DNA of 64,000 nt, taken from a virus (Duplodnaviria > Caudoviricetes). Positions 19,641 to 61,096 of the stretch are shown here, in pieces (positions within the stretch are counted from its first letter, which is position 1; each line of letters begins with the position of its first letter). Under the pieces are notes generated by a model that worked only from the letters and a program-made list of their open reading frames with translations, did not search any database and had not been told where the DNA came from. The stretch lies in IMG/VR virus record IMGVR_UViG_3300021478_000028, positions 116-64,115 of that record; one strand, written 5' to 3'. The translations under genes and the position numbers were made by a program.

Positions 19641-20012
19641 TCACCACGGCGTCCCGTCCGCCTGGTACAAATCCTCGGTACGACGCCCGGGATGGTAACA
19701 ATGCCGCTCCTGATATACCGTCCCATCCTCCCGCGTCGCCGTTCTCCACTCGGACCAATCCCCTTCCCGCACACTCTTCACAGGAATAGGCTTGTCCGCA
19801 CTCACCCCCAACCGCTCCAGCTCCGCCCGCATCTCCGCCTTGCTCCGCTCCGGAACCTCCGGTCGCTCCCGCGCCGCAAGATCGCGCGTATATGCCTCCG
19901 AAGCATACCGCTGCATCCGGTCCTTCTTCATCTGCTTGCGAACATGCTCCCTGTCCCATCTCATAACACCACGCCTCCAACTCCTAACTCGATCTCGCCA
20001 CTTGTTGCTCAT
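19641..20012 (-). CDS. Hypothetical protein
   Basis: GAGGAG upstream; purine-rich coding-like strand; start uncertain. Confidence 0.55.
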   Translation of the reverse strand: MSNKWRDRVRSWRRGVMRWDREHVRKQMKKDRMQRYASEAYTRDLAARERPEVPERSKAEMRAELERLGVSADKPIPVKSVREGDWSEWRTATREDGTVYQERHCYHPGRRTEDLYQADGTPW

Positions 20013-20211
20013 TCGAGACGCGCCCCCGGCGCTCCTCATGATGAGGATGAAAGCATCCACCCCCATGATATCATGTCAATAGCAGAATGCCCCATAATCC
20101 TTGACTTCCGTAAAAAAATCTGCGCTTAATTTTCCCGCCTGCTCCTCGCCTACGCGCGCGCGGCAGCAAACACCGCCAGCACAACAAATCAGGAACAGGC
20201 AACACTAAAGC

Positions 20212-20243
20212 AAAAAAGGGTGCACCTCACGTGCACCCTTTTT
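20212..20243. terminator. Bidirectional intrinsic terminator
   Basis: AAAAAAGGGTGCAC-CTCAC-GTGCACCCTTTTT. Confidence 0.75.
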
Positions 20244-20310
20244 CGTACCCCATCCGTCCATAATCGTTCCCCCCTCCTTCGAGGGGGCAAGCCTCTTCCC
20301 CCTCACCTGA

Positions 20311-20326
20311 TGTTCCACGTGAAACA
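20311..20326. promoter_or_regulatory. parS: Canonical chromosomal-type parS site
   Basis: TGTTCCACGTGAAACA is an exact match to TGTTNCACGTGAAACA and is intergenic. Confidence 0.8.
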
Positions 20327-20699
20327 TCCACCAACCGCATCGGTTGTACCATGCTCGCCCAGGTTGAAAGGGGAAAAAGGGGTCATACGTGCAATGAGGG
20401 TACGTATATAGCGCAGCAGGGGGTACCCCCTGGCCATGGTGGGGGGAGGGTGGCCCACCCCAGGGTGCCCTGCCCCTCCCCCGCGGCAGGGGTGGGGATG
20501 GAGCCGTGCTTGACTAGCACGTAGCGTGATGTAGAAAGATGAGTGGTAGCAATGGCTTGCGAGATTAGGAATGAACGGGGTAACGCTTGAGGGTAACAGC
20601 ACTGCCAAAGTATGAGCGTCGATGGCCAAGCGGTACCAGCCCCGCGAGCTTGGCCGGGGCACCAGTGGCCAACCACGAGCTTGACCACGAAATAGCGGG

Positions 20700-21050
20700 T
20701 TGCGACAAAACCCACCTTTCCTGCTTCCTGTGCGGGCTGCGATGGCGGCGTTACTGACCAAGATGCGAGAGTGTCGTTCGCGATCGGTTCCGCGATCGAA
20801 CAACCCGTTGGTGCTGGCGATTGCGAGGGTTTTGCCGGCGGACTTGGATGAGATCACGAGCGCGACGCTGGCTGATCTGATGGGGGTACGGGCGAGTGCT
20901 ATAGGGACGCGAGCGAAGCTTGCGAGGGCGATGTTAGAGTTGGGGTGGCTTCCATTTCGGCAGCGGCGGTCGAGCGGGCACTGGCGCGGGCAGGAGCTGC
21001 GTGGGTTTACGCGGATTGTGAGGAGCCCGAGGACGGGGGCGCGGTCCTGA
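20700..21050 (+). CDS. Putative winged-helix DNA-binding protein
   Basis: ITSATLADLMG...LARAMLELGW...RGFTR. Confidence 0.5.
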   Translation: MRQNPPFLLPVRAAMAALLTKMRECRSRSVPRSNNPLVLAIARVLPADLDEITSATLADLMGVRASAIGTRAKLARAMLELGWLPFRQRRSSGHWRGQELRGFTRIVRSPRTGARS

Positions 21051-21067
21051 AGCTATCAGGGCTAGTG

Positions 21068-21076
21068 TTATCCACA
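21068..21076 (+). promoter_or_regulatory. DnaA box
   Basis: TTATCCACA perfect match, intergenic. Confidence 0.5.
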
Positions 21077-21342
21077 GCCGTAGTGAGTGACATCACGGGA
21101 ACGTGATCTATTGTCACGCCCTTGTGAACAATAGTTGATGGTAAGCCTTGCAATGTCTGCGCTTTCCGCATACTGTGTGGCTTCGTTGTTAGCTTGCCCT
21201 CGTGAAGACGGGGGCTGTTGTTTGAAAATTCGGGCGCCCTGGACAGCCCCTCCACCCGGCCCCAGGCATTACCCGCAGCCCGATACATAGTCCCACCAAG
21301 TGGAGCGCTGGCGCGCCGAATGTGGAGGGGACGTAAAGAATA

Positions 21343-21415
21343 CGGAGAAACGAGCGAGGCGGCCGGAGCGGCCGTCTTTCCCGTCTCTTGACGGCCGACT
21401 GCATGGCGCGGTCGG
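21343..21415 (+). repeat. Structured leader copy 1
   Basis: Long stem with GAGCG/TTCCC internal loop, then CCGACTGC-ATGGC-GCGGTCGG. Confidence 0.85.
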
Positions 21416-21435
21416 AATAGAAGGAAAATGGACGA

Positions 21436-21633
21436 ATGACGAAGTTAGAGCAGCGAACGGCGCAAGGGTTGCGCGCATTTCGGAAGAACGAAGGCTTTAC
21501 CCTCACTTGGGAGCAATATGAGGCGCTGGTCGATCAGATGGCTCTCATGTGCTGCGATATGACGGGCATTGCCATTGATTATGCGGCGTTTTGCGACGCA
21601 TGTGGGCGAGGCGAGGCCTGCCCTCGGACTTGA
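21436..21633 (+). CDS. Small early protein
   Basis: 65 aa, follows leader 1. Confidence 0.6.
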   Translation: MTKLEQRTAQGLRAFRKNEGFTLTWEQYEALVDQMALMCCDMTGIAIDYAAFCDACGRGEACPRT

Positions 21634-23156: not shown

Positions 23157-23253
23157 GCTAGACCAGCCCATAGCGCTCTAAAGCGAGCGCTATGTTCGGG
23201 CCTAGCCCGCCTGCCCCCGTGGAGACGGGGGGCGGCCGCATGGCGCGGTCGTT
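23157..23253 (+). repeat. Structured leader copy 4
   Basis: GCTAG..CATAGCGCTC/GAGCGCTATG..CTAGC; GGAG hairpin; GGCGGCCGC-ATGGC-GCGGTCGTT. Confidence 0.85.
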
Positions 23254-23278
23254 CCACAATGAAGGAAAGCACAAACAC

Positions 23279-24847
23279 ATGACGACTAAATCACAAACGG
23301 TTGCAGCGGATGTTTACGCGCTGCTACGGGCGCGAGCACCGCTGACTTGGATAGTGACGCGCGAGGAAACCCGCGCGGAAATGTACATCGCGGAAGCCGC
23401 AATGGCCGCGAATTACGTCCCCATGACTTGGGACATCGCGGCCGGCGTGCGCGAGCTTGGCGGCAAGCCAGTCAACGGGTTCAGCCCTGATCCCGTAGAG
23501 ACTATGCGCGCAATCGGCGCGCGGGCAGAAGCCGGGACGGCAGGACGCGGACTGTTCTTCCTTCGCGACCTGCCATCGTGGCTTGAGGGTCAGGCGGGAG
23601 CGATGACGCTGCGGGCGCTGCGCAACCTCGCGCAGCAATTGCCGCGACCAACGGCCAGCCCGCAAGCCGTTGTCGTCATCTCGCCCAATGGCAATGTCCC
23701 CCCCGAGCTGTCATCGCTGGCAACAGTCATAGAGTGGCCGTTGCCCGATAGAGATGAAATCGCCGCACTGCTAGACGCGTCTCTTGAGGTTGCTGGCGAC
23801 AAGGTCGAAGCGTGCACCAATGGCACACGCGACCTCGCAATAGACGCGGCAATCGGGCTCACGGGCGACGAGGCACAATCGTGTTTCAATTGCAGCCTAG
23901 TCCAACATAAGAAGGTGGACGCGGTTGCAATCGCACAAGAGAAAAAGCGCACGATTGCTTCAGGTGGCTTGCTTGAGTGGTTCGATCCCCTTAAAGGCGG
24001 ATTGGACGCGGTCGGCGGGCTTGAGAACTTAAAATCGTGGCTTGTTGGCCGTGCCATTGCTTGGACACCGGGAGCACGCGCCTACGGCCTGCCAACTCCG
24101 AAAGGCGCGCTGCTAGTCGGCGTTCCCGGTTGTGGAAAGTCGCTCACGGCAAAGGCGATATCAACAGCATGGCAAGTGCCCTTGCTCCGTCTGGACTTGA
24201 ACTCGCTCAAAGGCAAGTTTGTCGGACAGAGTGAAGGCAATCTGCGCAAGGTCATAAGCATCATAAATGCACTTGGAAGGTGCGTGGTATGGCTTGACGA
24301 AATAGAGAAAGCGCTGGCCGGCGCAACGCAAGGCGCGGCCGACGGCGGTGTGAGCAGCGACGCGCTAGGAACAATCCTGTCATGGATGCAGGAGCGGAGC
24401 GGCGAAGCATTCGTCATTGCGACGGCGAATGATGTTTCAGCATTGCCGCCCGAGCTGTTGCGCAAAGGCAGATTTGACGAAGTGTGGTTTGTCGATTTGC
24501 CCACTGCAACCGAGCGCGCTGGCGTGCTCACGGCAGCACTGCGATCACACGGCCGCACGGCGGATGCTAATGAAGTTGCAAAGATTGTACCCGCAACGGA
24601 AGGCTTCACGGGCGCGGAGATTGCGGCAATCGTCCCCGACGCATTATTCGCAGCGTTCGCGGATGGTGCCCGCGAGGTAATCGCGGCCGACTTGCTGGCC
24701 GCAGCAGCAACCGTCGTGCCGCTGGCCAAGACCGCAGCGGAGAAAATCGCGGCGTTGCGAACATGGGCTGCGGGGCGAGCACGGCCGGCATCCAAGCCGG
24801 AAGCGACCGCATCAAAAGCCGCGGGCTTGCGAGCGATCGATATCTAG
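23279..24847 (+). CDS. Ycf46-like AAA+ ATPase
   Basis: Degenerate N-terminal AAA domain; VGGLENLK, GVPGCGKS, WLDEIEK, PPELLRKGRFDE. Confidence 0.92.
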   Translation: MTTKSQTVAADVYALLRARAPLTWIVTREETRAEMYIAEAAMAANYVPMTWDIAAGVRELGGKPVNGFSPDPVETMRAIGARAEAGTAGRGLFFLRDLPSWLEGQAGAMTLRALRNLAQQLPRPTASPQAVVVISPNGNVPPELSSLATVIEWPLPDRDEIAALLDASLEVAGDKVEACTNGTRDLAIDAAIGLTGDEAQSCFNCSLVQHKKVDAVAIAQEKKRTIASGGLLEWFDPLKGGLDAVGGLENLKSWLVGRAIAWTPGARAYGLPTPKGALLVGVPGCGKSLTAKAISTAWQVPLLRLDLNSLKGKFVGQSEGNLRKVISIINALGRCVVWLDEIEKALAGATQGAADGGVSSDALGTILSWMQERSGEAFVIATANDVSALPPELLRKGRFDEVWFVDLPTATERAGVLTAALRSHGRTADANEVAKIVPATEGFTGAEIAAIVPDALFAAFADGAREVIAADLLAAAATVVPLAKTAAEKIAALRTWAAGRARPASKPEATASKAAGLRAIDI

Positions 24848-29254: not shown

Positions 29255-29452
29255 TCACTGCTTTTTCCCGTACACGATCTCGCGCCCCTGCTCGAACGGC
29301 CCGATTGGCCGGCCGTATTTGGCCGTCATCTCCGCATACGACTGCCCCTCGGGCGGGTGCAACTCCCGCTTGAACCCCGGCCGCGCTCGCTTGAGCCACG
29401 GGTACTCGTCGGTGAATGTAGTCCTGCGTTGCCAGTATTCGCCGTCGCTCAT
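29255..29452 (-). CDS. Hypothetical protein
   Basis: 65 aa, GGAGG SD. Confidence 0.6.
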   Translation of the reverse strand: MSDGEYWQRRTTFTDEYPWLKRARPGFKRELHPPEGQSYAEMTAKYGRPIGPFEQGREIVYGKKQ

Positions 29453-29670
29453 TTCTTCCTCCGCATTTTCTCAGCAATGATCTCCGCCTCCGAGGGGCCG
29501 TTCATCTTGCGGTGCTCGCGCATGGCGCGATTGTAGAACGCATTGATGCTTTCACGCGGCCTGTGAATATCCCGGGCAACGCGCGAGGGCTCGACAATCA
29601 GCGTCTCCCCTCTGCGCTCCGCATAATACCACCACGCCGCCTCTTGCCAGTTGGGATCGTTCCAGCTCAT
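29449..29670 (-). CDS. Hypothetical protein
   Basis: 73 aa, AAGGAAG SD. Confidence 0.6.
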   Translation of the reverse strand: MSWNDPNWQEAAWWYYAERRGETLIVEPSRVARDIHRPRESINAFYNRAMREHRKMNGPSEAEIIAEKMRRKK

Positions 29671-29689
29671 TGGCTTCCTTCTTCGTCGC

Positions 29690-30330
29690 GTCCCCGGCTG
29701 ACCTAACGGTCAGCCTCTGAGCTTCACGGATAGAACCTTTCGTTTAATCGCTTAAGCCGCCGCCCACGGGCTGTTTAATTGCCCGGGGCGGCGGAGTCCT
29801 GGTGCTGCCTAGAGTATCCAACTGACTGCTGGAGCTTTCTGTTACTTACCTTTCTTCTATTGGCTATAGTGCTTGCTTAGGACACGACCCCCCAACCCCC
29901 CGCGGAAATGATCGGATTTAGCTGCCCGCCCTTTCCCGATTTTGTCGAGGGATTGGCGGATCATCCGGTTTCCACAAGGGACCGCGCAATGTGTGGTCGA
30001 GCCATTGGCCCAGTCAGCCCACGCGGTTTCGTTGGGGGATCGTCCGAGCCGGCACCTGGCAATCCAGGTGTCCTCATCCGAGGAGGCCCGCACGTGACCG
30101 GTCTATAACCGCATCCGGTCGGGGAAACCCCTACCCTACGGAGGCAATTACGCGCCCATTGACACTGCTGTAGGAAACCGCTTTGGATGCTGATGACCAG
30201 CGCGCCTACAGCTCGCGTTGGTCTCAGGGCTCACGTTCCGGCAAAAGATCGTGGGCCTTCTGGTGTCCCTGGTCCAGATCCCAGGTTGACGCCTCGCCCG
30301 GCGGGCTCCTCCAAGGCCCGACCGGGCTTC
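29690..30330. ncRNA. Candidate large structured RNA or replication origin
   Basis: No convincing ORF; about ten hairpins; C6-AA-C6 at 29888-29901; minus-strand TTGACT at 30359-30354. Confidence 0.5.
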
Positions 30331-30464
30331 TTTTTCTGCCTCCAGGCGAAGCCAGTCAAGGACTTTCCGCAACGCTCCACATCCCTGAGGAAATTCGGGA
30401 GGGGACCGATCCAGGTACCCCCTCCCCAGGCTGAAATGATACACTGGATCGACATACCAGCCTG

Positions 30465-30884
30465 CTAGGCCGCAACGCTCCACACCCTCACGAGCACGCC
30501 TTCCGGCGCCTCGCCCCTGGTAACCGTCAATTTACGCAGGAATTGGCGGCTGTCCCCCTGCACCAACTCGATGTTCACCAAGTAGTCCAAGAGGCTCTTT
30601 AGGACGTTGTCGATGTCGTGCCGAACCTTCTCCGAAAGGACGACGTGCACTGCATAGGGGCCGGCGATCTTCGGGCAGTTTTTGCGCTGCAACATGACAT
30701 GCTGATCGGCTCTCCGCGCCCAGGCTTCGTGCTTGGTCTTCTTGGCCAAATCGATCTTGCGGGTCTCGTTCACCGAGGGCGGGCACGGCAGGTGCAGCTC
30801 GATCCGGGGCTGGGGTTGGTCCTCGGATGCCTTCTCGGCCCCCCTATCGTCCACGTACACGCCACCGCTCATGAGTACCCCCAT
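30465..30884 (-). CDS. rusA: RusA-like Holliday junction resolvase
   Basis: LPCPPSVN, DIDNVLKSLLDYL..GDS. Confidence 0.85.
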   Translation of the reverse strand: MGVLMSGGVYVDDRGAEKASEDQPQPRIELHLPCPPSVNETRKIDLAKKTKHEAWARRADQHVMLQRKNCPKIAGPYAVHVVLSEKVRHDIDNVLKSLLDYLVNIELVQGDSRQFLRKLTVTRGEAPEGVLVRVWSVAA

Positions 30885-30893
30885 GGAAAGACC

Positions 30894-31196
30894 CTAGTCA
30901 GGCGCCGAGGCCCCCGCTGAAAACCCTATCCTTCGCCGCCGTTTGCGCGGCTTTGTCGGGGTTTGCGCCGCCAGCAGGTCGCGCAAGTGGATGGAAATAT
31001 CCAGCTTGGCGCCCTCTTCGATGATGCGTGCCCAGTGCCGCGAGGTGATTCGGCCCTTGCGCTTCATCTCGCTGGCCGCCTGTTGCTGCACGCCGATCGC
31101 GCGGGCGAACGCGCTCACGCCGCCAAAGGCGCGCATGATCGACGACACCGTCCAGGGCAAATCCTTGGGATGGCTGTTTCCCGAGCGCTTCACCAA
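30894..31196 (-). CDS. Cro-like HTH repressor
   Basis: IMRAFGGVSAFARAIGV....SEMKRKG.I...W. Confidence 0.8.
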   Translation of the reverse strand: MVKRSGNSHPKDLPWTVSSIMRAFGGVSAFARAIGVQQQAASEMKRKGRITSRHWARIIEEGAKLDISIHLRDLLAAQTPTKPRKRRRRIGFSAGASAPD

Positions 31197-34841: not shown

Positions 34842-35351
34842 GTGTCAAGAAAGCCGTTGACTGAGGAGCAGCGCGAGCGGAACCGCAATCGGAACCGCCG
34901 GTATTATGCCGCCCACAAGGAGAAAGAGCACGAACGGACCCGCCGGTATTATGCCGCGCACAAGGAGCAAGCGAAGGAGCGGGATCGTCGGTATTATTCC
35001 GCGTTGACTGAAGAGCAGATGGAAAGGAGGCGCGAGCTAGCCCGCCGATATTATGCCGCCCACAAGGAGAAAGAGCGCGAACTGAACCGTCGATGGTATG
35101 CCGCGCACAAGGAGCAAGTGAAGGAGAGGGCTCGTCGGTATCATGCCGCGCACAGGGATGAATTGCGGGAGACGCGCCGCCAGTGGGGCCTCGCCCATCC
35201 GAATTATAATCGCCTGCGCTACACGTTCTTAGCCGAGATCAAAAAATCCGGTCTCTATGACGGGATCGACTCACCCCCGACAATTACCATCCTACGAAAA
35301 CTTGGCCTGCTCGAAGGCGCGTGGCCGCATTGTTCAACAGAGGAGAAATAA
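34842..35351 (+). CDS. Charged helical repeat protein
   Basis: Tandem RRYYAAHKE(K/Q) repeats. Confidence 0.7.
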   Translation: MSRKPLTEEQRERNRNRNRRYYAAHKEKEHERTRRYYAAHKEQAKERDRRYYSALTEEQMERRRELARRYYAAHKEKERELNRRWYAAHKEQVKERARRYHAAHRDELRETRRQWGLAHPNYNRLRYTFLAEIKKSGLYDGIDSPPTITILRKLGLLEGAWPHCSTEEK

Positions 35352-51700: not shown

Positions 51701-52051
51701 CTGGCTGTAATCGGGAATGAACGAAGTGGAGTTGGCGAGCGCATCCGCCGTCTGCTGCGATGTCGCCTGCTGCTGCGACATCGCCTGCTGCAGTGATGAA
51801 GCCTGCTGCACCGCAGCTGCTTGCTGATCCTGCGCCGCTGACTGTTGGTTCGTAGAGAGGCCGGGGACGGCTATTAGCGGCGCCGATGCCTTTGGCGCCG
51901 ACGGAATGGTTGCACCTGGCAGTGTTGGGGTGGCCGCCGCCGGCAGCGGGGCCGTCGATACGCCAGTGGAAGTCGTAGGCGTCAACGGCGTAGGCGGCAC
52001 GTACGGCGCTGGACTCCCAATGGTATCGATAGATCCAAAATTAAAAGCCAT
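48713..52051 (-). CDS. Internal virion/ejection (pilot-like) protein
   Basis: 1112 aa Q/S/G-rich; YGIDPSSGR; C-terminal TDDVPA...L...EFVIP..V...G. Confidence 0.8.
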   Translation of the reverse strand: MAFNFGSIDTIGSPAPYVPPTPLTPTTSTGVSTAPLPAAATPTLPGATIPSAPKASAPLIAVPGLSTNQQSAAQDQQAAAVQQASSLQQAMSQQQATSQQTADALANSTSFIPDYSQTPILESVANQAQGYAQPMMDWATQNYNALQGNVNQLYSLANQLNSPYHIASDMGQAEAGVTQATQAALLAAQQSLQSYGIDPSSGRNQELTQAMNVQGAAAAAGAGNQQRVADQQQYQAALGQAVSAQTGAYNAGTQAMAMPNQYLGTAIKLPYSPLGTASTSTSTSQGTSDSSGISQSTGTSQSTGSNLSSGGGSSQGTSTSYNPPSFGSSGSGSSGSSGAGTSGPIANVTPGFKQNTLVNMSARGGPIEVNPAYQEGGDVYGGGGDYSAYYGSAGGGGGGGGYGSGYTDYSGGGYGDGSAPGYENNYGFGQDNSSQQLQPSLQSTYGTDPIAYGLGLASNTASQAGINQSLLSQGMGASAGSAGIDPNMLAAGMAAGQGFQSGGGVDAYGEPDPYGTAGLQAQAEAAAPSWGPRPGSLEDKLYKLGQQIGSGTPGATIGGGHGGGGGGRGGGGGGRGGGGGPAPFRYVPLRPVPLTPTRFFQDGGAADGYYTDSGPNYGPPPGSLEDRLNKLDQQIGSGTPGSKIGGGGGGGGGGGPRPPSGAVVDARNPAHLQSAGPFPWPNWPGPTDPRSAWAAQGIGGSPMAAAGMGPHMQSGGFVPVQVPMLPTHVDPSLIREGLKAAQERGITDPTQAFQFAQQLAQAFTQQQLAQQQQAGQAFVQQAGQQAVTAQRASDDQSVARGAAPTAAAAAAPTYGAPSYGAAAPTPGPFQRVYDPNDPRILRPNPNDPRIRPVPGSVEDVGSGSPIIRRVPTPDQVAATKPKMISNAPVDTSSPSEIRRKMGQTPAGQDWLKAHPPADKPAASWETPLPRPRPSDAPGADALPPDSAPSSSPDSTPPPSDVVPMPQRRPFDAPRGPAPRSPTMEEWRQQNPLEQIPPELQNPDPNLFRGELAPSYNTASYAARGGPIPGGYYQQGGGIVPPGLSPSGGMRTDDVPAVINQTGGMARLNANEFVIPRDVALWKGQEFFQNLIKKSRQTKAGAPARPQMAQARV

Positions 52052-52090
52052 CTGCGTACCTGCTGCTGCGACCGTGCCTGCTGCGTGGAG

Positions 52091-52122
52091 AGCCTATCCC
52101 GGCTAGGTTTAAGCCGTATTAA
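52091..52122 (-). promoter_or_regulatory. CtrA-type late promoter (ejection proteins)
   Basis: TTAA-N7-TAAA, 11 nt, TAGGCT. Confidence 0.7.
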
Positions 52123-52144
52123 TCACGGATTTTCAGCACTGAAA

Positions 52145-54121
52145 TCATCCAGGCACTATTGTTCCAACAGCTATGCCCGTAACCGTGTCGGTAGTGGTCA
52201 CCGATGTAACCTTGTAGGCGACATTCCATGTAAAGCCGCCGTCCTCCGACCAGGCAATCGAAGGAAAGTTGACATTGGTTCCACTTCCCCCCCCTCCCAA
52301 TCCTCCCACCACGAAAAATTTTCTTCCATCAGAGGCACAGCATCTAACATCTCTTATTAGTGAGGGACAAACATCTGTGCCGACAAGTACTCCGTTTCGG
52401 AATATCTTATCGCCATTTACGTAATCAATCGATATAACTATCGGAGTATTATCATCAATGTTGAAACCATAAGCTCTGTCCCGGGATGCTTGGAGAATGT
52501 TAATGTTTGCCGTGTCCTGTTCTGGATCGCCGCCGCTGCTGATGTTAAAGTTTATCGGAGACGTTGAACCCGGTAAAATTACTCCTTTCACACCAGTTGC
52601 TCCCGTTGCACGCCAGGTAATTCCATCAGTTGACGCATATTGCAGCCCTCCCGGCAGCGACGCGTATGCTTGCTTGGATTGCATATCAAAAGACATGCCA
52701 TCTACAGAGCCAATAAAATTGATAATAGACGAAGGCGGCGGGATCAGTGTGGCAAGAAAGCCGCCGTCTTGACCACCATTCAGTGAATAAACAATAGCTG
52801 CCCCAGGTGACGTTGGGGATTTGAATCCTCCGAGCACCCACACGGGCCTGCCCTCAGGCACAAACCCCTCCCTAAACCATCCGCCACACGTAACAGTACC
52901 CCCCGTACCGAGGATGGTGGCCTCTAAAGGCGTCCATGCCTTTCCGTCGAGGGAGTATCCCAGGAAACAACTAACATCTCCCACAAAAAAGTTAGCTGGT
53001 CCTGACAGAAACCCGGGCGGCCGGGACGGTTGTGGCTCTTGGGGTTGGAGGCCTGCGATTCCTCCAGCCGCTATGGCCCGAAGTGTGAAGGCAATACTGA
53101 CAGATGTAACGTCAGTTACCAACGTCCATGAAATTCCACCGTCATCGGACCATGCTACGGCATTTTTATAAATGGTAGAGGTTTCATCTCTGCCGCCTAA
53201 AACGAAAAACTGTTGCCCATCTGATACACAACAATTGACGCTATTGAGCACAGCTCCGACACCATTAGAATCACCAAAAAACGGAATAGGCACGCCATTT
53301 CTAAGCACCCTACCCTGGCTTATTTGTTCTACCGTGAGGGCACACTCGATAACTATTTGGCTGCCAGAATTATCAATGCCATATGCTTGATACCTGGATG
53401 CCTGAAAAATGTTGATGAAATCAGTGTTTCGCGCCGGATCGTCGCCAAAGGCAACATTAGCTCTCGATGTTCCCGGGGACCTGGAACCTGGCAAAATCTT
53501 CCTCAAGTCGTTATCCGACACAATGGTTCCTGTCCAATTGACTCCATCCTGTGAAACATATTGCAATATATCCCCAAAGAAAGTTGCGGAATGAGCATAT
53601 ACGGAGCCCGTGGCCGGGTCGAAAGACATGCCATCCACCGATCCATAAGGAACTGGGTCCAGGGTGGCAAAAAAGCCACCATCCGCGCCACCATTAAATG
53701 AATATACGATAACCCCTAGAGTACCATACTGGCTATATCCACCTAACAACCACACAGGTCTTCCAGTATCGACAAAGCCCTGCCTGAACCATCCCCCGCA
53801 AAAAATATTCCCCGCGTTAATAAGAGTGTTCTCTAAAGGCGTCCAATTTTCCCCATCCGGTGAATATCCCAGATAGCTACCATCATCCCCGGCAAAATAG
53901 GCGGAAGGACCGGATACGACTACACCACCTCCACCTGCACCCGCACCTGCGCCGCCAGTTATCCAGCTCACGCCTGTAATGATTTGGAGGAAGTCCTCGT
54001 TATAGGGTGCCCCGCTGGTGTCGAATGGAGTATTTCCGGAGGCGGGATAGGGCTCTCCTGGCCCTACAACAATCTTGCTGGGAACATTATCATCAGCCAC
54101 GCCTAGCGTTCCCAGACCCAA
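52145..54121 (-). CDS. Tail spike or receptor-binding protein with a duplicated Asp-box domain
   Basis: YSPDG.NW/YSLDG.AW and AWSDDGGISW/AWSEDGGFTW; two homologous halves. Confidence 0.75.
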   Translation of the reverse strand: MGLGTLGVADDNVPSKIVVGPGEPYPASGNTPFDTSGAPYNEDFLQIITGVSWITGGAGAGAGGGGVVVSGPSAYFAGDDGSYLGYSPDGENWTPLENTLINAGNIFCGGWFRQGFVDTGRPVWLLGGYSQYGTLGVIVYSFNGGADGGFFATLDPVPYGSVDGMSFDPATGSVYAHSATFFGDILQYVSQDGVNWTGTIVSDNDLRKILPGSRSPGTSRANVAFGDDPARNTDFINIFQASRYQAYGIDNSGSQIVIECALTVEQISQGRVLRNGVPIPFFGDSNGVGAVLNSVNCCVSDGQQFFVLGGRDETSTIYKNAVAWSDDGGISWTLVTDVTSVSIAFTLRAIAAGGIAGLQPQEPQPSRPPGFLSGPANFFVGDVSCFLGYSLDGKAWTPLEATILGTGGTVTCGGWFREGFVPEGRPVWVLGGFKSPTSPGAAIVYSLNGGQDGGFLATLIPPPSSIINFIGSVDGMSFDMQSKQAYASLPGGLQYASTDGITWRATGATGVKGVILPGSTSPINFNISSGGDPEQDTANINILQASRDRAYGFNIDDNTPIVISIDYVNGDKIFRNGVLVGTDVCPSLIRDVRCCASDGRKFFVVGGLGGGGSGTNVNFPSIAWSEDGGFTWNVAYKVTSVTTTDTVTGIAVGTIVPG

Positions 54122-56885: not shown

Positions 56886-57611
56886 TCAGACCTCGATGGC
56901 CACGAACTGCACATCTTTGATAGAGCAACCGCCCGCCGTCACCGCTTGCAGCGTCAAGTCAAAATAATAGGTCACTCCCACCGTCAAGCTGGTTCTAACG
57001 CCGGTTATCGTAAATCCCTGCTGGCCAGCCGTTGTGGACGCAATAAAGTGCTGCGGCGTGGCAACAGCGGTTCCAAACCCTGTAGTAGCGCCTGCAGCTG
57101 GTCCTGACCCAATACCGCTGTAAGCCTTGATGGTAGTGCCGTCGCCAACCGCTGTAGAATTGAGGACCATCCCAGCAAAGATAAAAAAGACGGTTCCAGT
57201 CACGACTGGCTGGATCTGAAGATTAAAGCCCATTGCAGTTTCGGTAGTGCTGACGTTGGTAATGGTCGGGTTGGCAGCATTGAAGGAAACTTGGGCTGCC
57301 GTCGCCATGCCAAGTCCCTGCGATCCTTGCGGCCCTGTGCTCCCTGCCTTTCCCGTCGCTCCTGTCGAGCCCACTCCGGGAGGTCCGGTGTTTCCCCGCG
57401 GGCCGGCGGGGCCGGTCGCGCCAGCTCCCGTGGGACCAGTGGCTCCCGTTGGCCCGGTGACCGCGCTTCCCGCTGGCCCGGTCGCTCCAATATGTCCGGT
57501 CGGGCCTGCTGGCCCCCCACCCGGGCCGGTCGGCCCGGTGGCTCCAGGTAGAGTGCTGGAAATCGCCGTTATCCCGCCCGTCGGCCCCTGAATAACATTG
57601 ATGACCGCCAT
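56886..57611 (-). CDS. Collagen-like fibre protein (GPT repeats, globular C-terminus)
   Basis: [12 protein letters not shown]..., G-P/A-T repeats. Confidence 0.85.
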
Positions 57612-57612
57612 C

Positions 57613-57993
57613 TTAGGTAATCCCGCTCTGGACGCAGACGGTGCCACGAAACATCGGCACCAGGACCGGCGGACTGCCGGGGCTGCTCATGATCAGGTCA
57701 TACACGTAATCGCCGGGCACCAGTGCGTTTGAAAGATCGGTTGGATTGACGTTGAAAAAAATCACTCTCGCGACTGCATCCGTGATGACAATACGACCGT
57801 TGGCAGTCGTCATCGAAAGGAGGGGTGTCGTGTCATTCTCACTCCCTTTGACCGACATTCCAAATGTCTTCCCGGTCAGATTCCAACTGGTGTCTGCCGG
57901 GTCGCCGAATTGGAATCCATCAGCCCAAGTGCAGTTGAGGGCGATGGCAAAATCAACGCGATCACCAACCTCCGGGCAGTCGCAATTGGACAC
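57613..57993 (-). CDS. Fibre adaptor-like beta protein
   Basis: GTG start MSNCDC; G.YVYDL..FRG.V.V..GIT. Confidence 0.7.
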
Positions 57994-57994
57994 G

Positions 57995-58300
57995 TCACTT
58001 CCCCTTCGCCTTGGTTTCGTGGACGTAGTTGCGAGGTCGGAACACCGGGACCATCGTGCCCTCGCTCGGGTCAGGGGGCGGCTGCGGTCGTCCCGCCGCT
58101 TGCTCCTCGAAAAACCTGGTGCGTCTGCGGCCGGCCTCCTGCTCCGCTTCGATCTGCTCCAGTTGCCGCTGTGTAGGCTTCCCGGGTTGCGGCGGCACCC
58201 CCGCGGGCTTCGGGGCGCGGGCTTCGTAGAGCTGCTCCAAAAAGACTTGCTGCTCCTTCTCGTGCTCGATGAGGCGATTTTCGGCAACTTGTGACGGCAT
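57995..58300 (-). CDS. Small hydrophilic protein
   Basis: First gene after the CtrA-type promoter at 58308-58339. Confidence 0.65.
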   Translation of the reverse strand: MPSQVAENRLIEHEKEQQVFLEQLYEARAPKPAGVPPQPGKPTQRQLEQIEAEQEAGRRRTRFFEEQAAGRPQPPPDPSEGTMVPVFRPRNYVHETKAKGK

Positions 58301-58307
58301 GGTTTTC

Positions 58308-58339
58308 TCCATAAACGAGCGCAGTTAATGCTGCATTAA
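58308..58339 (-). promoter_or_regulatory. CtrA-type late promoter (tail operon)
   Basis: TTAA-N7-TTAA at 58325-58339, 11 nt, TATGGA. Confidence 0.75.
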
Positions 58340-58344
58340 ATAGC

Positions 58345-60138
58345 TCAGGACAGGACCGGTTGAGGGTCTATATACCACGTAGTGGAGGGTTTGGCGCACA
58401 AGACACGGAGGTGGATCGGGCCGGTTTGAGCAGGTTGCGGAGAAGAAAGCGTCACGCTCATCTTGAACGGTGTTGTCGATCCGCCCCAGGTCGAGCTGTC
58501 CGACGAAAGCGCTGATCCAGCCGCCAGATTATTCGCTTTGGTTGAATTGATAAAGGACCCTTGAGGAAAACTAGCAGATCCCAGATATTCTGCTTCAATC
58601 CAGATGTCGTCGTTGTTTGGAACAGCGCCGCCACCCCATATTCCAAAAACTGTCACGGTAACATTCGTAGCGGTGGATTTATTCTCCACCAGCATGAACG
58701 GGCTCTTATATGGCCATAGCCATTTAGAATTGGCAGTCGTGACAATCTTCCAGCTTAAGGGCGTACCCTCTATAGCGGCGCCACCTGTCCTGACAATTGT
58801 AGTCTCGACAGTCTGGGTCGCCTCATAGGCGTACCTCTCGTGCCGATAATTGGTGCCGCTGCTGTCGGATCGAATGACAGTCGTTATATATCCTCCTATC
58901 ACGCTTGGATTGCCTGACACCGTAACTGACGCATTAAGCCTACAGTCAATAAAATTGAAGGTTCCTGGCATGCCCACCCCACTGCGCACCAAGGTTTTAC
59001 CACTGCCTGCGGCGCTGAGATCAACGCCCCTTATCGTGTGTATCCCAAGAACTGTTGATGTACTGAACAAGTTTGTAGGCACCGCAGAACCAACAAGAGC
59101 AGATGGCGTATTCTCCCACACAAATTCATTGATGTTCGAGATAATAACTTGACTGACATTGTTAAAGCCGACAGTCGTGTTGACAAACCAGAGTCGAGTG
59201 GCATTAAAACCATTGCCAAAATTCATTGTCGAGGCGGCAGAGGTTCCACCCAACACCACGCTACAATTCTCCATTTTCTGGGCAAATGCAGTATTAGCAG
59301 CACCAAAAGTAATGTTACCTTGGCTTGAACCAGAGCCGGCCGTAAAAGTGAGCCCATAATAATAGGCATATCCGCCGTTGAACCCGAGGTTGGACGCGCC
59401 GGTAACCGACCATGTCCCCGTTGTTTTCAGATTTGAGGAAGTTGGAGGGGCTACCGTGTGGTCAACACAAATGACCGAAATGGGAGCGGTGGTAGTTCCT
59501 TGATTGCTTAGATTGACGCTCGCGGCATTGGTCTCAGCCGAGTTATCACCGAAAAATACGGAATTTCCGGCCTGCGCCCATGTTGAAGCCGTCGCATTAT
59601 TCAGTCTCGCGTGCGGAGCTGCCCATGCAGAGAAGCTCGCTCCTAGGGTCGTCCAAGTGACAGTGTTGTCGGCAGTAGTTGCCCCAGCATTCGTGAAAGC
59701 GGCCCAAGAAGGTTCTGCCCCGTTGCCTGCCGTGCCCGCAGTCGTGCAGATGAGAATGAGCGTCCCAGCTACATTTTGGATGACCTGCCCGAGCGTAACA
59801 GCAGTATTCTTAACAGTGGCCCATGTTGGCGTGTTTGTTAGATCACCATTAAGAGCAGCTACGCCCGTAGCCTCCTGCCACGTTACGGTGTTGTCAGTAA
59901 ATTTCTGCCCTCTGCTTGTGGTGCTCCATGTTGGTTCCGTTCCGCCCGTGGTGCCAGTGCCACCCGTGGATGCTATACAAACAAAACAGCGCTCCGTAAG
60001 TGCGGGTGATACCGTCGCTTGGCGGATTATATTTCCACAGACTTTCGATGCACCGGTAGCCCAGGCGGTTACACCAAACCATCCAGTGGATGACCCGTTC
60101 CCAAAGTTCGTGTAGAAAGCATTGTCCACTAATGCAAT
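58345..60138 (-). CDS. Thr/Ser-rich beta-structured virion protein; probable AUU start
   Basis: Repeated GT.G..EP.W...T.DNTVTW modules; YIDPQP end; AGGAGG-6nt-ATT. Confidence 0.8.
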   Translation of the reverse strand: MALVDNAFYTNFGNGSSTGWFGVTAWATGASKVCGNIIRQATVSPALTERCFVCIASTGGTGTTGGTEPTWSTTSRGQKFTDNTVTWQEATGVAALNGDLTNTPTWATVKNTAVTLGQVIQNVAGTLILICTTAGTAGNGAEPSWAAFTNAGATTADNTVTWTTLGASFSAWAAPHARLNNATASTWAQAGNSVFFGDNSAETNAASVNLSNQGTTTAPISVICVDHTVAPPTSSNLKTTGTWSVTGASNLGFNGGYAYYYGLTFTAGSGSSQGNITFGAANTAFAQKMENCSVVLGGTSAASTMNFGNGFNATRLWFVNTTVGFNNVSQVIISNINEFVWENTPSALVGSAVPTNLFSTSTVLGIHTIRGVDLSAAGSGKTLVRSGVGMPGTFNFIDCRLNASVTVSGNPSVIGGYITTVIRSDSSGTNYRHERYAYEATQTVETTIVRTGGAAIEGTPLSWKIVTTANSKWLWPYKSPFMLVENKSTATNVTVTVFGIWGGGAVPNNDDIWIEAEYLGSASFPQGSFINSTKANNLAAGSALSSDSSTWGGSTTPFKMSVTLSSPQPAQTGPIHLRVLCAKPSTTWYIDPQPVLS

Positions 60139-60148
60139 GACACGCCTC

Positions 60149-61096
60149 CTACATGAAGAAGAAGGCTACTGACCCGGCAGGACCCGTTGGCCCGATTCCT
60201 CCCGTCGCGCCTGTGAGGGATGCAGTCCCTGCAGGACCCGTGGTGCCAGTGCTTCCAGTAGGGCCTGTGGCGCCTATTCCTCCTATGCTGCCAGTTGGCC
60301 CCGTGTTTCCAGGCCCCGTGCTTCCCGTAGGTCCGCCCGGGCCGATGCTGCCAACTAGTCCCGTAGGTCCAATAACACCTGTTGGTCCGGTGGGGCCGAT
60401 AGGCCCGCCGGCTCCCGTGGGTCCTGCCCCCGTGGGACCTGACGGCCCGATCTGACCCTGCAGCCCCGTGCTTCCCGTCGGGCCGGTCGGACCGCCGGGA
60501 TTGCCTGTGGCACCAACCGGACCGGTAGTGCCCAACGGCCCAGTGGGGCCGGTGGGGCCACCCGCTGGACCAGTGTTTCCGATAGATCCCGTGGCGCCCG
60601 TGGGACCAGTAACAAAAGCCCCCGTCGCCCCCGTCGTTCCCGGGGTCCCCGGCGTTCCCGCAGGTCCCGTTGCTCCAATGCCCGTCGGGCCAGTTGGACC
60701 GCCAGCAGGACCGGTCGGACCGGGACCGCCCAAGCCTGTCGGGCCGGTGGGTCCACCTGGACCCACCAACGAAAGCATCAGATCGCTGTTACCGGAGGTG
60801 ATCGTCGGGCCGCCATTGGTCTCTATGAACACTTCCAGCCGGTCGAGACGACGCTGCCCCAGCGTCGTCGTGGCTTGGATAATGACGTTGAACTGATCTC
60901 CTAACGTGCCGCCGCCAACGATGAAGCTCGCGGATTGCTTGTCTGCACCGATCTTGATCGTATCAACGGCAGCAGTGCCCTGATCAACCGTGCATACAAC
61001 ATTGGTGATGGCCTCTCCGGTAAGCAGCCAGCGAGCATAATCGACGCGGATGAGATCGCGTGCGCCAACCAGTTGAACGAAGCGACCAAGCAGCAT
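60149..61096 (-). CDS. Collagen-like fibre with adaptor N-terminal domain
   Basis: VDY..WL domain followed by GPT repeats. Confidence 0.88.

What the first reader, a model, noticed from the sequence alone, without database searches (positions are those of the whole stretch)
29690..30360. A hairpin-dense non-coding block with a G6-TT-G6 tract sits where replication genes should be
Seen: downstream of the cro-like gene and rusA, about 650 nt have no credible ORF but many stems (GCCCGG..CCGGGC, GACCAGCGCG/CGCGTTGGTC, GACCGG/CCGGTC, GGGGAAACCCC, CACCTGG/CCAGGTG, GACCGCGC/GTGTGGTC, CCGCCGCCC/GGGCGGCGG, GGCTGACC/GGTCAGCC). The minus strand has TTGACT at 30359, then GGGGGGTTGGGGGG at 29901-29888 followed by an A-rich stretch. 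I recognise no initiator, primase, helicase or polymerase in the window. Established: ColE1 RNA II and mitochondrial CSB II use G-tracts in a folded transcript to form a priming R-loop. Inference: an initiator-independent, RNA-primed phage origin or a new large ncRNA. Caveat: two stems have G-T pairs favouring the + strand, so the strand is unresolved and sense/antisense RNAs are possible.
Basis: partly seen in the sequence, partly recalled or inferred. Interest (0 to 1): 0.82.

Follow-up and report, generated by a model that had tools for sequence, protein, structure and literature searches.

The report
Orphan non-coding spacer after phage rusA
An 800-base stretch without a gene in a soil phage folds rather well and carries a strong transcription stop signal on the opposite strand, so it may encode a small regulatory RNA, but nothing shows that it is a replication origin and no relative carries it.

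Summary
The block 29671-30464 is real and non-coding. It is less special than it looked. It holds 4 perfect hairpins, against a genome mean of 3.06 per window. Its folding energy is the best of 80 tiles, but 4 of 12 other tiles also score z of -3.8 or lower against shuffles.

The window is a whole 64-kb soil phage. No polymerase, primase, helicase or initiator was recognised. In relatives, replication-type genes follow rusA at this position.

No evidence supports an RNA-primed origin:
- there is no minus-strand promoter;
- the G6TTG6 tract pairs within a helix;
- there are no iterons and no DnaA boxes.

The most concrete feature is on the + strand. The strongest intrinsic terminator of the genome (30296-30337) lies about 460 nt downstream of an AT-rich TATAGT site. 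The stretch between them has no ORF and folds well.

An 18-nt ghost of the rusA 3' end and a 65-aa gene fragment mark a mosaic junction. No homologue of the element was found in any reachable collection, so covariation could not be tested.

Verdict: a possible orphan ncRNA unit or a recombination scar. Interest is modest.

The parts
30465..30884 (-). rusA (Holliday-junction resolvase), the gene upstream of the block
   Evidence: Pfam RusA, E 6.9e-05. Five homologues in the 5.8-billion-protein search, three of them 67-71% identical.
30470..30487 (.). copy 1 of an 18-nt direct repeat; this is the true 3' end of rusA
   Evidence: family D3 (17 of 18 identical to 30367-30384)
30367..30384 (.). copy 2 of the repeat: a 'ghost' rusA 3' end that reads ..GMWSVAESP*.
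   Evidence: 39-aa ORF 30356-30475; my reading
30397..30464 (-). two hairpins between the repeat copies. The second (30397-30426, -19 to -20 kcal/mol) is followed by GAAUUUCCUC and may be a weak end of the cro-rusA transcript.
   Evidence: terminator role inferred
30296..30340 (+). intrinsic terminator on the + strand (branched GC-rich hairpin, then TCTTTTTCT)
   Evidence: strongest of only 4 sites on both strands of the genome under strict criteria (-26.9 kcal/mol). Also listed. It accounts for the 16-bit Atu_C7 match.
29877..30337 (+). candidate ORF-less structured RNA of about 460 nt (inferred, not shown)
   Evidence: + strand: MFE -208.6, z -4.21, centroid -202.8. Reverse complement: z -3.65, centroid -184. 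Among 464-nt tiles it ranks only 18 of 236 for MFE and 40 of 236 for ensemble diversity.
29841..29870 (+). the only sigma-70-like site on the + strand of the block: GTTACT, 18 nt, TATAGT (8 of 12)
   Evidence: weak, and the tool scan did not list it
29805..29880 (.). AT-rich stretch (GC 0.434)
   Evidence: lowest 2% of 76-nt windows
29888..29901 (.). C6AAC6 / G6TTG6 tract; 29889-29896 pairs with 30031-30038 and closes a domain of about 150 nt
   Evidence: (I4)
29757..29794 (.). perfect 9+5-bp palindrome (-32 kcal/mol on either strand)
29696..29715 (.). perfect 8-bp palindrome just upstream of the ribosome-binding site of the 73-aa ORF
29449..29670 (-). 73-aa ORFan, the gene downstream of the block
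   Evidence: codon score +0.15; only itself among 5.8 billion proteins, on 4 contigs
29255..29452 (-). 65-aa ORF matching only a short conserved segment of 180-260-aa proteins that follow the replication-type gene in relatives
   Evidence: phmmer E 3.6e-08 (L061) and 1e-06 (L107); tblastx

Best explanation
The block is a true non-coding spacer. It lies at a recombination junction in the early cro-rusA operon of an orphan soil phage whose structural genes resemble those of Rhizobium phages. In relatives, replication-type genes occupy this position.

Its best-supported functional content is a small transcription unit on the + strand, opposite to the flanking genes. This unit has three parts:
- an AT-rich segment with a TATAGT -10-like box;
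- about 460 nt of ORF-less, well-folding sequence that starts with the C6AAC6 tract;
- the strongest intrinsic terminator in the genome.

I infer that it makes a regulatory or insulating RNA. Such an RNA could act by transcriptional interference, or by antisense pairing with the untranslated minus-strand spacer between rusA and the downstream small genes. This would resemble phage antisense RNAs such as lambda OOP or anti-Q (recalled). It is not an origin.

Shown: the block is non-coding, the terminator is present, the fold is good and the junction marks are there. Inferred: the promoter, the transcript and its function.
For: - The block is non-coding.
- The + strand terminator at 30296-30337 is the strongest of 4 strict sites in 128 kb of both strands.
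- The only + strand promoter-like site lies 460 nt upstream, inside the lowest-2% GC stretch.
- The + strand RNA has the better z (-4.21 against -3.65), and its centroid almost equals its MFE (-202.8 against -208.6). On the reverse strand the values are -184 against -215.7.
- Two stems need G-U pairs on the + strand.
- Junction marks: the 18-nt ghost of the rusA end, the 65-aa fragment and the ORFan neighbour.
- Relatives carry coding genes at this position.
Against: - No transcript data exist. No RNA run holds the stretch.
- The promoter match is weak (8 of 12), and the standard scan did not list it.
- Structure is nearly strand-symmetric. 135 pairs are shared out of 242 (+) and 250 (-), with 19 and 27 G-U pairs.
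- Against other tiles of the genome the candidate RNA ranks only 18 of 236 for energy and 40 of 236 for ensemble definition.
- 4 of 12 ordinary tiles reach z of -3.8 or lower.
- No homologue was found, so there is no covariation evidence.
Confidence: 0.35

Rival explanations
1. The block is a recombination scar with no function of its own. A replication module found in relatives was lost or replaced, leaving non-coding filler. The hairpins are incidental or act only as ordinary terminators and mRNA-end stabilisers.
For: - Ghost rusA end, 65-aa gene fragment and ORFan neighbours.
- Relatives have genes at this position.
- The perfect-hairpin count is ordinary: 4 against a mean of 3.06.
- The fold lies within the tail of the genome's own distribution.
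- No conservation was found anywhere.
Against: - No remnant of the relatives' genes is detectable in any frame. HMMs of two families gave only E of 0.3 or higher inside the block.
- The block is the best-folding of 80 tiles.
- A very strong terminator on the 'wrong' strand needs a reason.
Confidence: 0.3
2. The block is a structured minus-strand leader within the cro-rusA operon mRNA. It would be a processing, stability, attenuation or antitermination element that controls the 73-aa ORF and the genes after it.
For: - It has the same orientation as both neighbours.
- The minus strand has the lower energy: -360.6 against -343.4. It ranks 1 of 80 tiles and 4 of 236.
- A 7-bp long-range helix pairs 30348-30354 with 29671-29677, right before the AUG.
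Against: - No Rfam match.
- No U-tract terminators on the minus strand.
- Two stems become A-C mismatches on this strand.
- No conservation.
Confidence: 0.12
3. The block is an origin of replication. It could be the reader's transcript-primed, initiator-independent origin, or an origin served by an unrecognised initiator.
For: - No replication gene was recognised in a record that CheckV rates 100% complete.
- Relatives place replication genes here.
- An AT-rich stretch lies beside a G-run.
Against: - No minus-strand promoter.
- The G-tract is paired and there is no G4 motif.
- No iterons or enriched words, and no DnaA box within one mismatch.
- No skew signal at the block. The local skew minimum, hairpin peak and a consensus DnaA box lie near 20-21 kb instead.
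- No RNAI or other match.
Confidence: 0.1
4. The block holds an unrecognised protein-coding gene.
For: ORFs of 60-111 aa exist on both strands.
Against: - Their codon scores run from -0.009 to -0.199.
- 0 of 7 ORFs hit PHROGs or Pfam.
- The 111-aa ORF has no homologue.
- Each of the six frames holds all three stop codons.
Confidence: 0.03

Closest known systems
Phage antisense and small RNAs in early operons (lambda OOP and anti-Q/paQ, P22 sar); recalled, not tested
   Same: A short transcription unit on the strand opposite to an early operon, ended by an intrinsic terminator. It is thought to act by antisense pairing or transcriptional interference.
   Different: Those RNAs are about 70-220 nt and overlap coding sequence. 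This candidate is about 460 nt, lies wholly in untranslated spacer, and has no demonstrated transcript.
   Same: A non-coding block of several hundred nt with many stems, and a G-run beside an AT-rich stretch.
   Different: There is no promoter for the would-be primer and no RNAI match. The G-run is paired in the predicted folds of both strands. To my knowledge (recalled) no such replicons are known outside enterobacteria and their relatives. PolA and RNase H dependence cannot be tested here.
T4 oriF/oriG R-loop origins; recalled
   Same: A transcript-primed phage origin made of a promoter plus a downstream unwinding element.
   Different: T4 brings its own replisome. Here there is no promoter on the required strand and no evidence of initiation.
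Large phage-associated ncRNAs GOLLD and ROOL (Rfam; PMC12286853 seen only as a search listing and abstract start)
   Same: A non-coding structured block of several hundred nt in a phage genome.
   Different: No Rfam family matched at gathering score on the whole window. Only chance-level matches appeared at E up to 10. No tRNA lies nearby. No family of relatives exists in reach.
Terminator-rich nin region of lambdoid phages, where rusA/rap-type genes sit; recalled
   Same: It lies next to rusA in an early rightward-type operon and is rich in GC hairpins.
   Different: The only canonical terminator points against the operon. No Q-like antiterminator was recognised.
REP/BIME/RIME-type palindromic intergenic repeats; recalled
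   Same: Clusters of perfect GC-rich palindromes that are equally good on both strands.
   Different: No second copy of any unit exists in the phage. No match was found in the plasmid collection. Host genomes could not be searched because the host is unknown.

Membership tests
ColE1-type RNA-primed origin | sigma-70 promoter for the primer RNA several hundred nt upstream of the initiation site | tested here: not met
   At 8 or more of 12 matches, the minus strand between 29600 and 30700 has sites only at 29650 and 30556. TTGACT at 30359 is followed 17 nt later by GAAAAA.
ColE1-type RNA-primed origin | antisense RNA I (Rfam RNAI) overlapping the 5' end of the primer | tested here: not met
   No RNAI match at E up to 10.
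ColE1-type RNA-primed origin | G-rich RNA segment that stays hybridised to the template | tested here: inconclusive
   G6TTG6 is present, but it is paired with 30031-30038 in the predicted folds.
ColE1-type RNA-primed origin | dependence on host Pol I and RNase H | not testable with these tools
   A bench test in the unknown host is needed.
Iteron or DnaA-box origin | clustered repeated binding sites beside an AT-rich unwinding element | tested here: not met
   No enriched 5-8-mer after multiple testing. 0 of the 11 DnaA-box matches in the genome lie in the block. The AT-rich stretch is present.
Known RNA families (Rfam 15, including GOLLD, ROOL, group I/II introns, riboswitches) | covariance-model score at or above the gathering threshold | tested here: not met
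   0 matches on the whole window. The best match in the block is 23.5 bits against a threshold of 42.
Conserved structured ncRNA (any new family) | homologues with compensatory base changes | not testable with these tools
   No homologue in the following searches, so no alignment could be made.
- blastn and nhmmer on the fetched loci: 54 metagenome, 18 viral and 32 exonuclease-neighbour loci.
- DNA search of the 50 full IMG/VR records behind the viral and exonuclease loci.
- blastn against the phage and plasmid collections.
- Covariance model R1 on 58 other loci and on the same 50 records.
Intrinsic (Rho-independent) terminator | GC-rich hairpin directly followed by a U-run | tested here: met
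   + strand 30296-30337: hairpin -24 kcal/mol, tail TCTTTTTCT. It is the strongest of 4 strict sites.
Phage antisense or small regulatory RNA | own promoter and a detectable transcript | tested here: inconclusive
   One weak promoter-like site. No RNA sequencing run holds the stretch.
Protein-coding gene | open frame with the codon bias of the genome, or with homologues | tested here: not met

The most novel reading that the evidence does not exclude
A phage with no recognisable replication gene has swapped the usual initiator module downstream of rusA for an RNA-only element. A large structured transcript, or a sense/antisense pair of them, would either prime replication on host enzymes or form a new class of phage regulatory RNA.
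Probability: 0.07. Interest if true: 0.85.

Novelty: new member of a known kind. Interest (0 to 1): 0.3.

Why it matters
If the + strand RNA is real, it adds an unusually long, structured example to the few known phage early-operon regulatory RNAs, from a poorly studied group of soil phages. A separate question stays open and is the more interesting one: how does a 64-kb phage without any recognisable replication gene copy its DNA? If the block is only a recombination scar, it is ordinary.

Tried and rejected
**Homologue searches that found nothing useful**
- blastn against phages and plasmids gave no match.
- blastn and nhmmer of the block found nothing in three sets of loci: 54 metagenome rusA loci, 18 viral rusA loci and 32 loci around RecE-like exonuclease genes.
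- A DNA search of 50 whole related IMG/VR records gave only 15-39-nt chance matches, best E 0.015.
- The single-sequence covariance model R1, built on the 5' domain, had a best foreign hit of 12.9 bits at E 0.8.
- A 22-nt exact pattern of the C-tract had 0 matches in viral contigs.
- Single-protein searches with rusA and the 73-aa ORF gave 1 non-syntenic locus in viral contigs for rusA and none for the 73-aa ORF. rusA found none in genome contigs.
- The rusA alignment found only 2 MAG contigs in genome contigs. The exonuclease found 1.

**Sequencing runs**
- No RNA holder was listed.
- Four soil DNA runs hold the identical sequence with no variant, so they gave no microdiversity.

**Gene-remnant test**
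- tblastn of 2834 ORFs from the loci fetched by then, and HMMs of two gene families, gave only noise inside the block.

**Other checks**
- The 45-nt tandem repeat at 34890-35158 looked like iterons, but it lies inside a coding repeat protein.
- GC skew tracks gene orientation.
- Palindromes do not recur as operators.
- Five unknown proteins were searched against PDB sequences and gave nothing at E below 0.04.

**Tools and data not available**
- Structure prediction of candidate initiators was not run, for lack of alignments.

Full report
**Context.** The window is all but the first 115 bases of an IMG/VR virus record of 64,115 bp. CheckV rates it 100% complete.
- Family searches name a major head protein, portal/adaptor, large terminase, endolysin, AAA ATPase, RecE-like exonuclease, Erf, a radical-SAM protein, a ParB-like protein and virion proteins.
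- The nearest cultured phages are Rhizobium phages RHph_TM27A and its kin, with portal 55% identical at the same map position.
- A tblastx of the window against 14-40 kb of RHph_TM27A, which holds its DNA polymerase I and SNF2 helicase, found nothing at E below 1e-6. Only the structural half is shared.
- The block lies on the minus-strand operon: cro-like gene (30894-31196), rusA (30465-30884), the block, then small ORFs of 73, 65, 75 and 171 aa.

**The observation.** The block is non-coding.
- No ORF exceeds 111 aa.
- A codon log-odds score trained on 20 confident genes is not positive in any frame over 29700-30420, while the neighbours score +0.15 to +0.22.
- None of 7 ORFs hits PHROGs or Pfam at E up to 0.1.
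- The longest ORF has no homologue in 5.8 billion proteins.
- Each of the six frames holds all three stop codons.
- Rfam gives nothing at gathering score on the whole window and only chance-level hits at E up to 10.
- There is no tRNA.

**Is the structure more than chance?**
- Against its own dinucleotide shuffles the 794-nt block scores z -5.56 (minus) and -5.43 (plus). Three coding controls scored -0.96, -0.94 and +0.69.
- A wider control changes the picture. 12 other minus-strand tiles of the same length ranged from -4.6 to +0.7, and 4 of the 12 were -3.8 or lower.
- After regression on GC the block is first of 80 tiles, but only at z -2.45 against -2.14 for the runner-up.
- With 300-nt windows it ranks 37 of 633 (minus) and 87 of 633 (plus).
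- It has 4 perfect hairpins of at least 6 bp, against a mean of 3.06. 485 of 1265 windows have as many or more.
- The two strands share 135 pairs, out of 242 (+) and 250 (-). They have 19 and 27 G-U pairs. The stems are therefore mostly Watson-Crick palindromes that do not tell the strands apart.
- The block folds well, at the top of this genome, but it is not a clear outlier.

**The origin idea.**
- The minus-strand TTGACT has no -10 box 16-18 nt downstream.
- It overlaps the stop codon of a ghost rusA end. An 18-nt repeat (17 of 18 identical) lies at 30470-30487 and at 30367-30384, and the second copy reads ..WSVAESP*. I estimate such a repeat arises by chance in 1.3 kb with p below 0.001. 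This estimate is my own inference.
- The G-tract is unique as a doublet among 25 runs of six or more G or C. It forms no G4 motif, and it pairs with 30031-30038 in both folds.
- No word of 5-8 nt is enriched beyond what several hundred tests allow.
- None of the 11 near-consensus DnaA boxes lies in the block.
- Cumulative GC skew follows gene orientation.
- Nothing speaks for initiation here, although nothing excludes it.

**What the surroundings say.**
- 59 window ORFs (52 gene candidates plus 7 ORFs of the block) scanned against PHROGs and 26 against Pfam include no polymerase, primase, helicase or initiator.
- Five unknown proteins found nothing in PDB sequences.
- In relatives, genes follow rusA directly. 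L036 has a DUF1376 protein and a P-loop ATPase. L084 has a 253-aa ORF whose region does not fold better than shuffles, z 0.07. L107 has 278-aa and 256-aa ORFs.
- The window's 65-aa ORF matches only a short segment of that 180-260-aa family.
- The 73-aa ORF is an ORFan, seen only as itself on 4 contigs.
- Searches for remnants of these genes inside the block gave noise.
- This is a mosaic junction where a module was replaced. It is not a recognisably decayed gene.

**The + strand.**
- I ran a strict scan of both strands of the genome. It required a hairpin of -14 kcal/mol or lower, abutting a tail with at least 7 T in 9. It finds 4 sites.
- The strongest by far (-26.9) is on the + strand at 30296-30337, pointing against the operon.
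- The only + strand promoter-like site in the block is GTTACT, 18 nt, TATAGT at 29841-29870. It is a weak match (8 of 12) inside a stretch whose GC (0.434) is in the lowest 2%.
- The 464 nt between them fold to -208.6 kcal/mol with z -4.21 and a centroid of -202.8. The reverse complement gives z -3.65 and a centroid of -184.
- Against 236 tiles of the genome this RNA ranks 18th for energy and 40th for ensemble definition. 118 of the 137 possible tile positions were reached before the time limit.
- I therefore propose a + strand ncRNA unit as the most likely functional content. This rests on inference.

**Conservation.** None was found.
- Nucleotide, profile and covariance-model searches all came back empty. 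They covered 54 metagenome, 18 viral and 32 exonuclease-neighbour loci, 50 whole related IMG/VR records, and the phage and plasmid collections.
- Four soil metagenome runs carry the identical sequence without variants, and no RNA run was listed.
- The three rusA relatives at 67-71% identity were not among the loci returned.

**Literature.**
- Two full-text searches gave no paper on a structured element downstream of rusA.
- PMC10690425, of which I read passages, reports six candidate structured RNAs upstream of RusA genes in viral contigs. Its supplementary tables are closed, so I cannot say whether this block is among its candidates.
- The comparisons with lambda OOP and anti-Q, P22 sar, ColE1, T4 R-loop origins, the nin region and REP elements are recalled, not tested.

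**Verdict.** This is a real non-coding, well-folding orphan spacer at a recombination junction. It may hold a + strand regulatory RNA (0.35) or may be a mere scar (0.30). A minus-strand leader (0.12) and an origin (0.10) are less likely. Interest is modest unless transcription or conservation is shown.

Noticed in passing
window 19900-21450: This intergenic zone has the densest cluster of perfect hairpins in the genome (14 per 794 nt). It holds a 13-bp perfect bidirectional terminator at 20213-20243, TTGACT sites at 20101 and 20510, a local minimum of cumulative GC skew near 20 kb, and a consensus DnaA box at 21068-21076. It is a better candidate than the reported block for a regulatory hub or origin.
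   Followed up: partly
window 34842-35351 (+): A 169-aa ORF is built of about six 15-residue RRYYAAHKE-type repeats (45-nt tandem repeat, 5.7 copies). The minus-strand 247-aa ORF that I first called here is spurious.
   Followed up: yes
window 51900-54100: About 2 kb between structural genes has low codon score and only short ORFs. A TTGACT site lies at 53538.
   Followed up: no
window 23192-24847 (+): A 551-aa classic AAA ATPase is 47% identical to gp96 of Mycobacterium phage Corndog. This is an odd kinship for a phage whose structural genes resemble Rhizobium phages.
   Followed up: partly
window 56886-61096 (-): Two collagen-like (GPTG repeat) proteins flank a 594-aa Thr/Ser/Gly-rich protein. 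I read them as fibre-like from composition alone. The 594-aa protein has a 39% identical relative in L094.
   Followed up: partly
whole window: The phage is a chimera. Its structural module is like Rhizobium phages RHph_TM27A and kin, while its early region (Cro, RusA, RecE-like exonuclease, Erf, ParB-like protein) is unrelated to theirs. No integrase was recognised among the proteins scanned.
   Followed up: partly
L061 5580-6119 and L107 6405-7040: In L061 a GcrA-family cell-cycle regulator gene follows rusA directly (Pfam GcrA, E 4.3e-24). An L107 ORF in the same minus-strand gene row as its replication-type ORFs looked GcrA-like to me by eye. GcrA is, as I recall, confined to alphaproteobacteria, which would hint at such hosts for this early-region type.
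   Followed up: no
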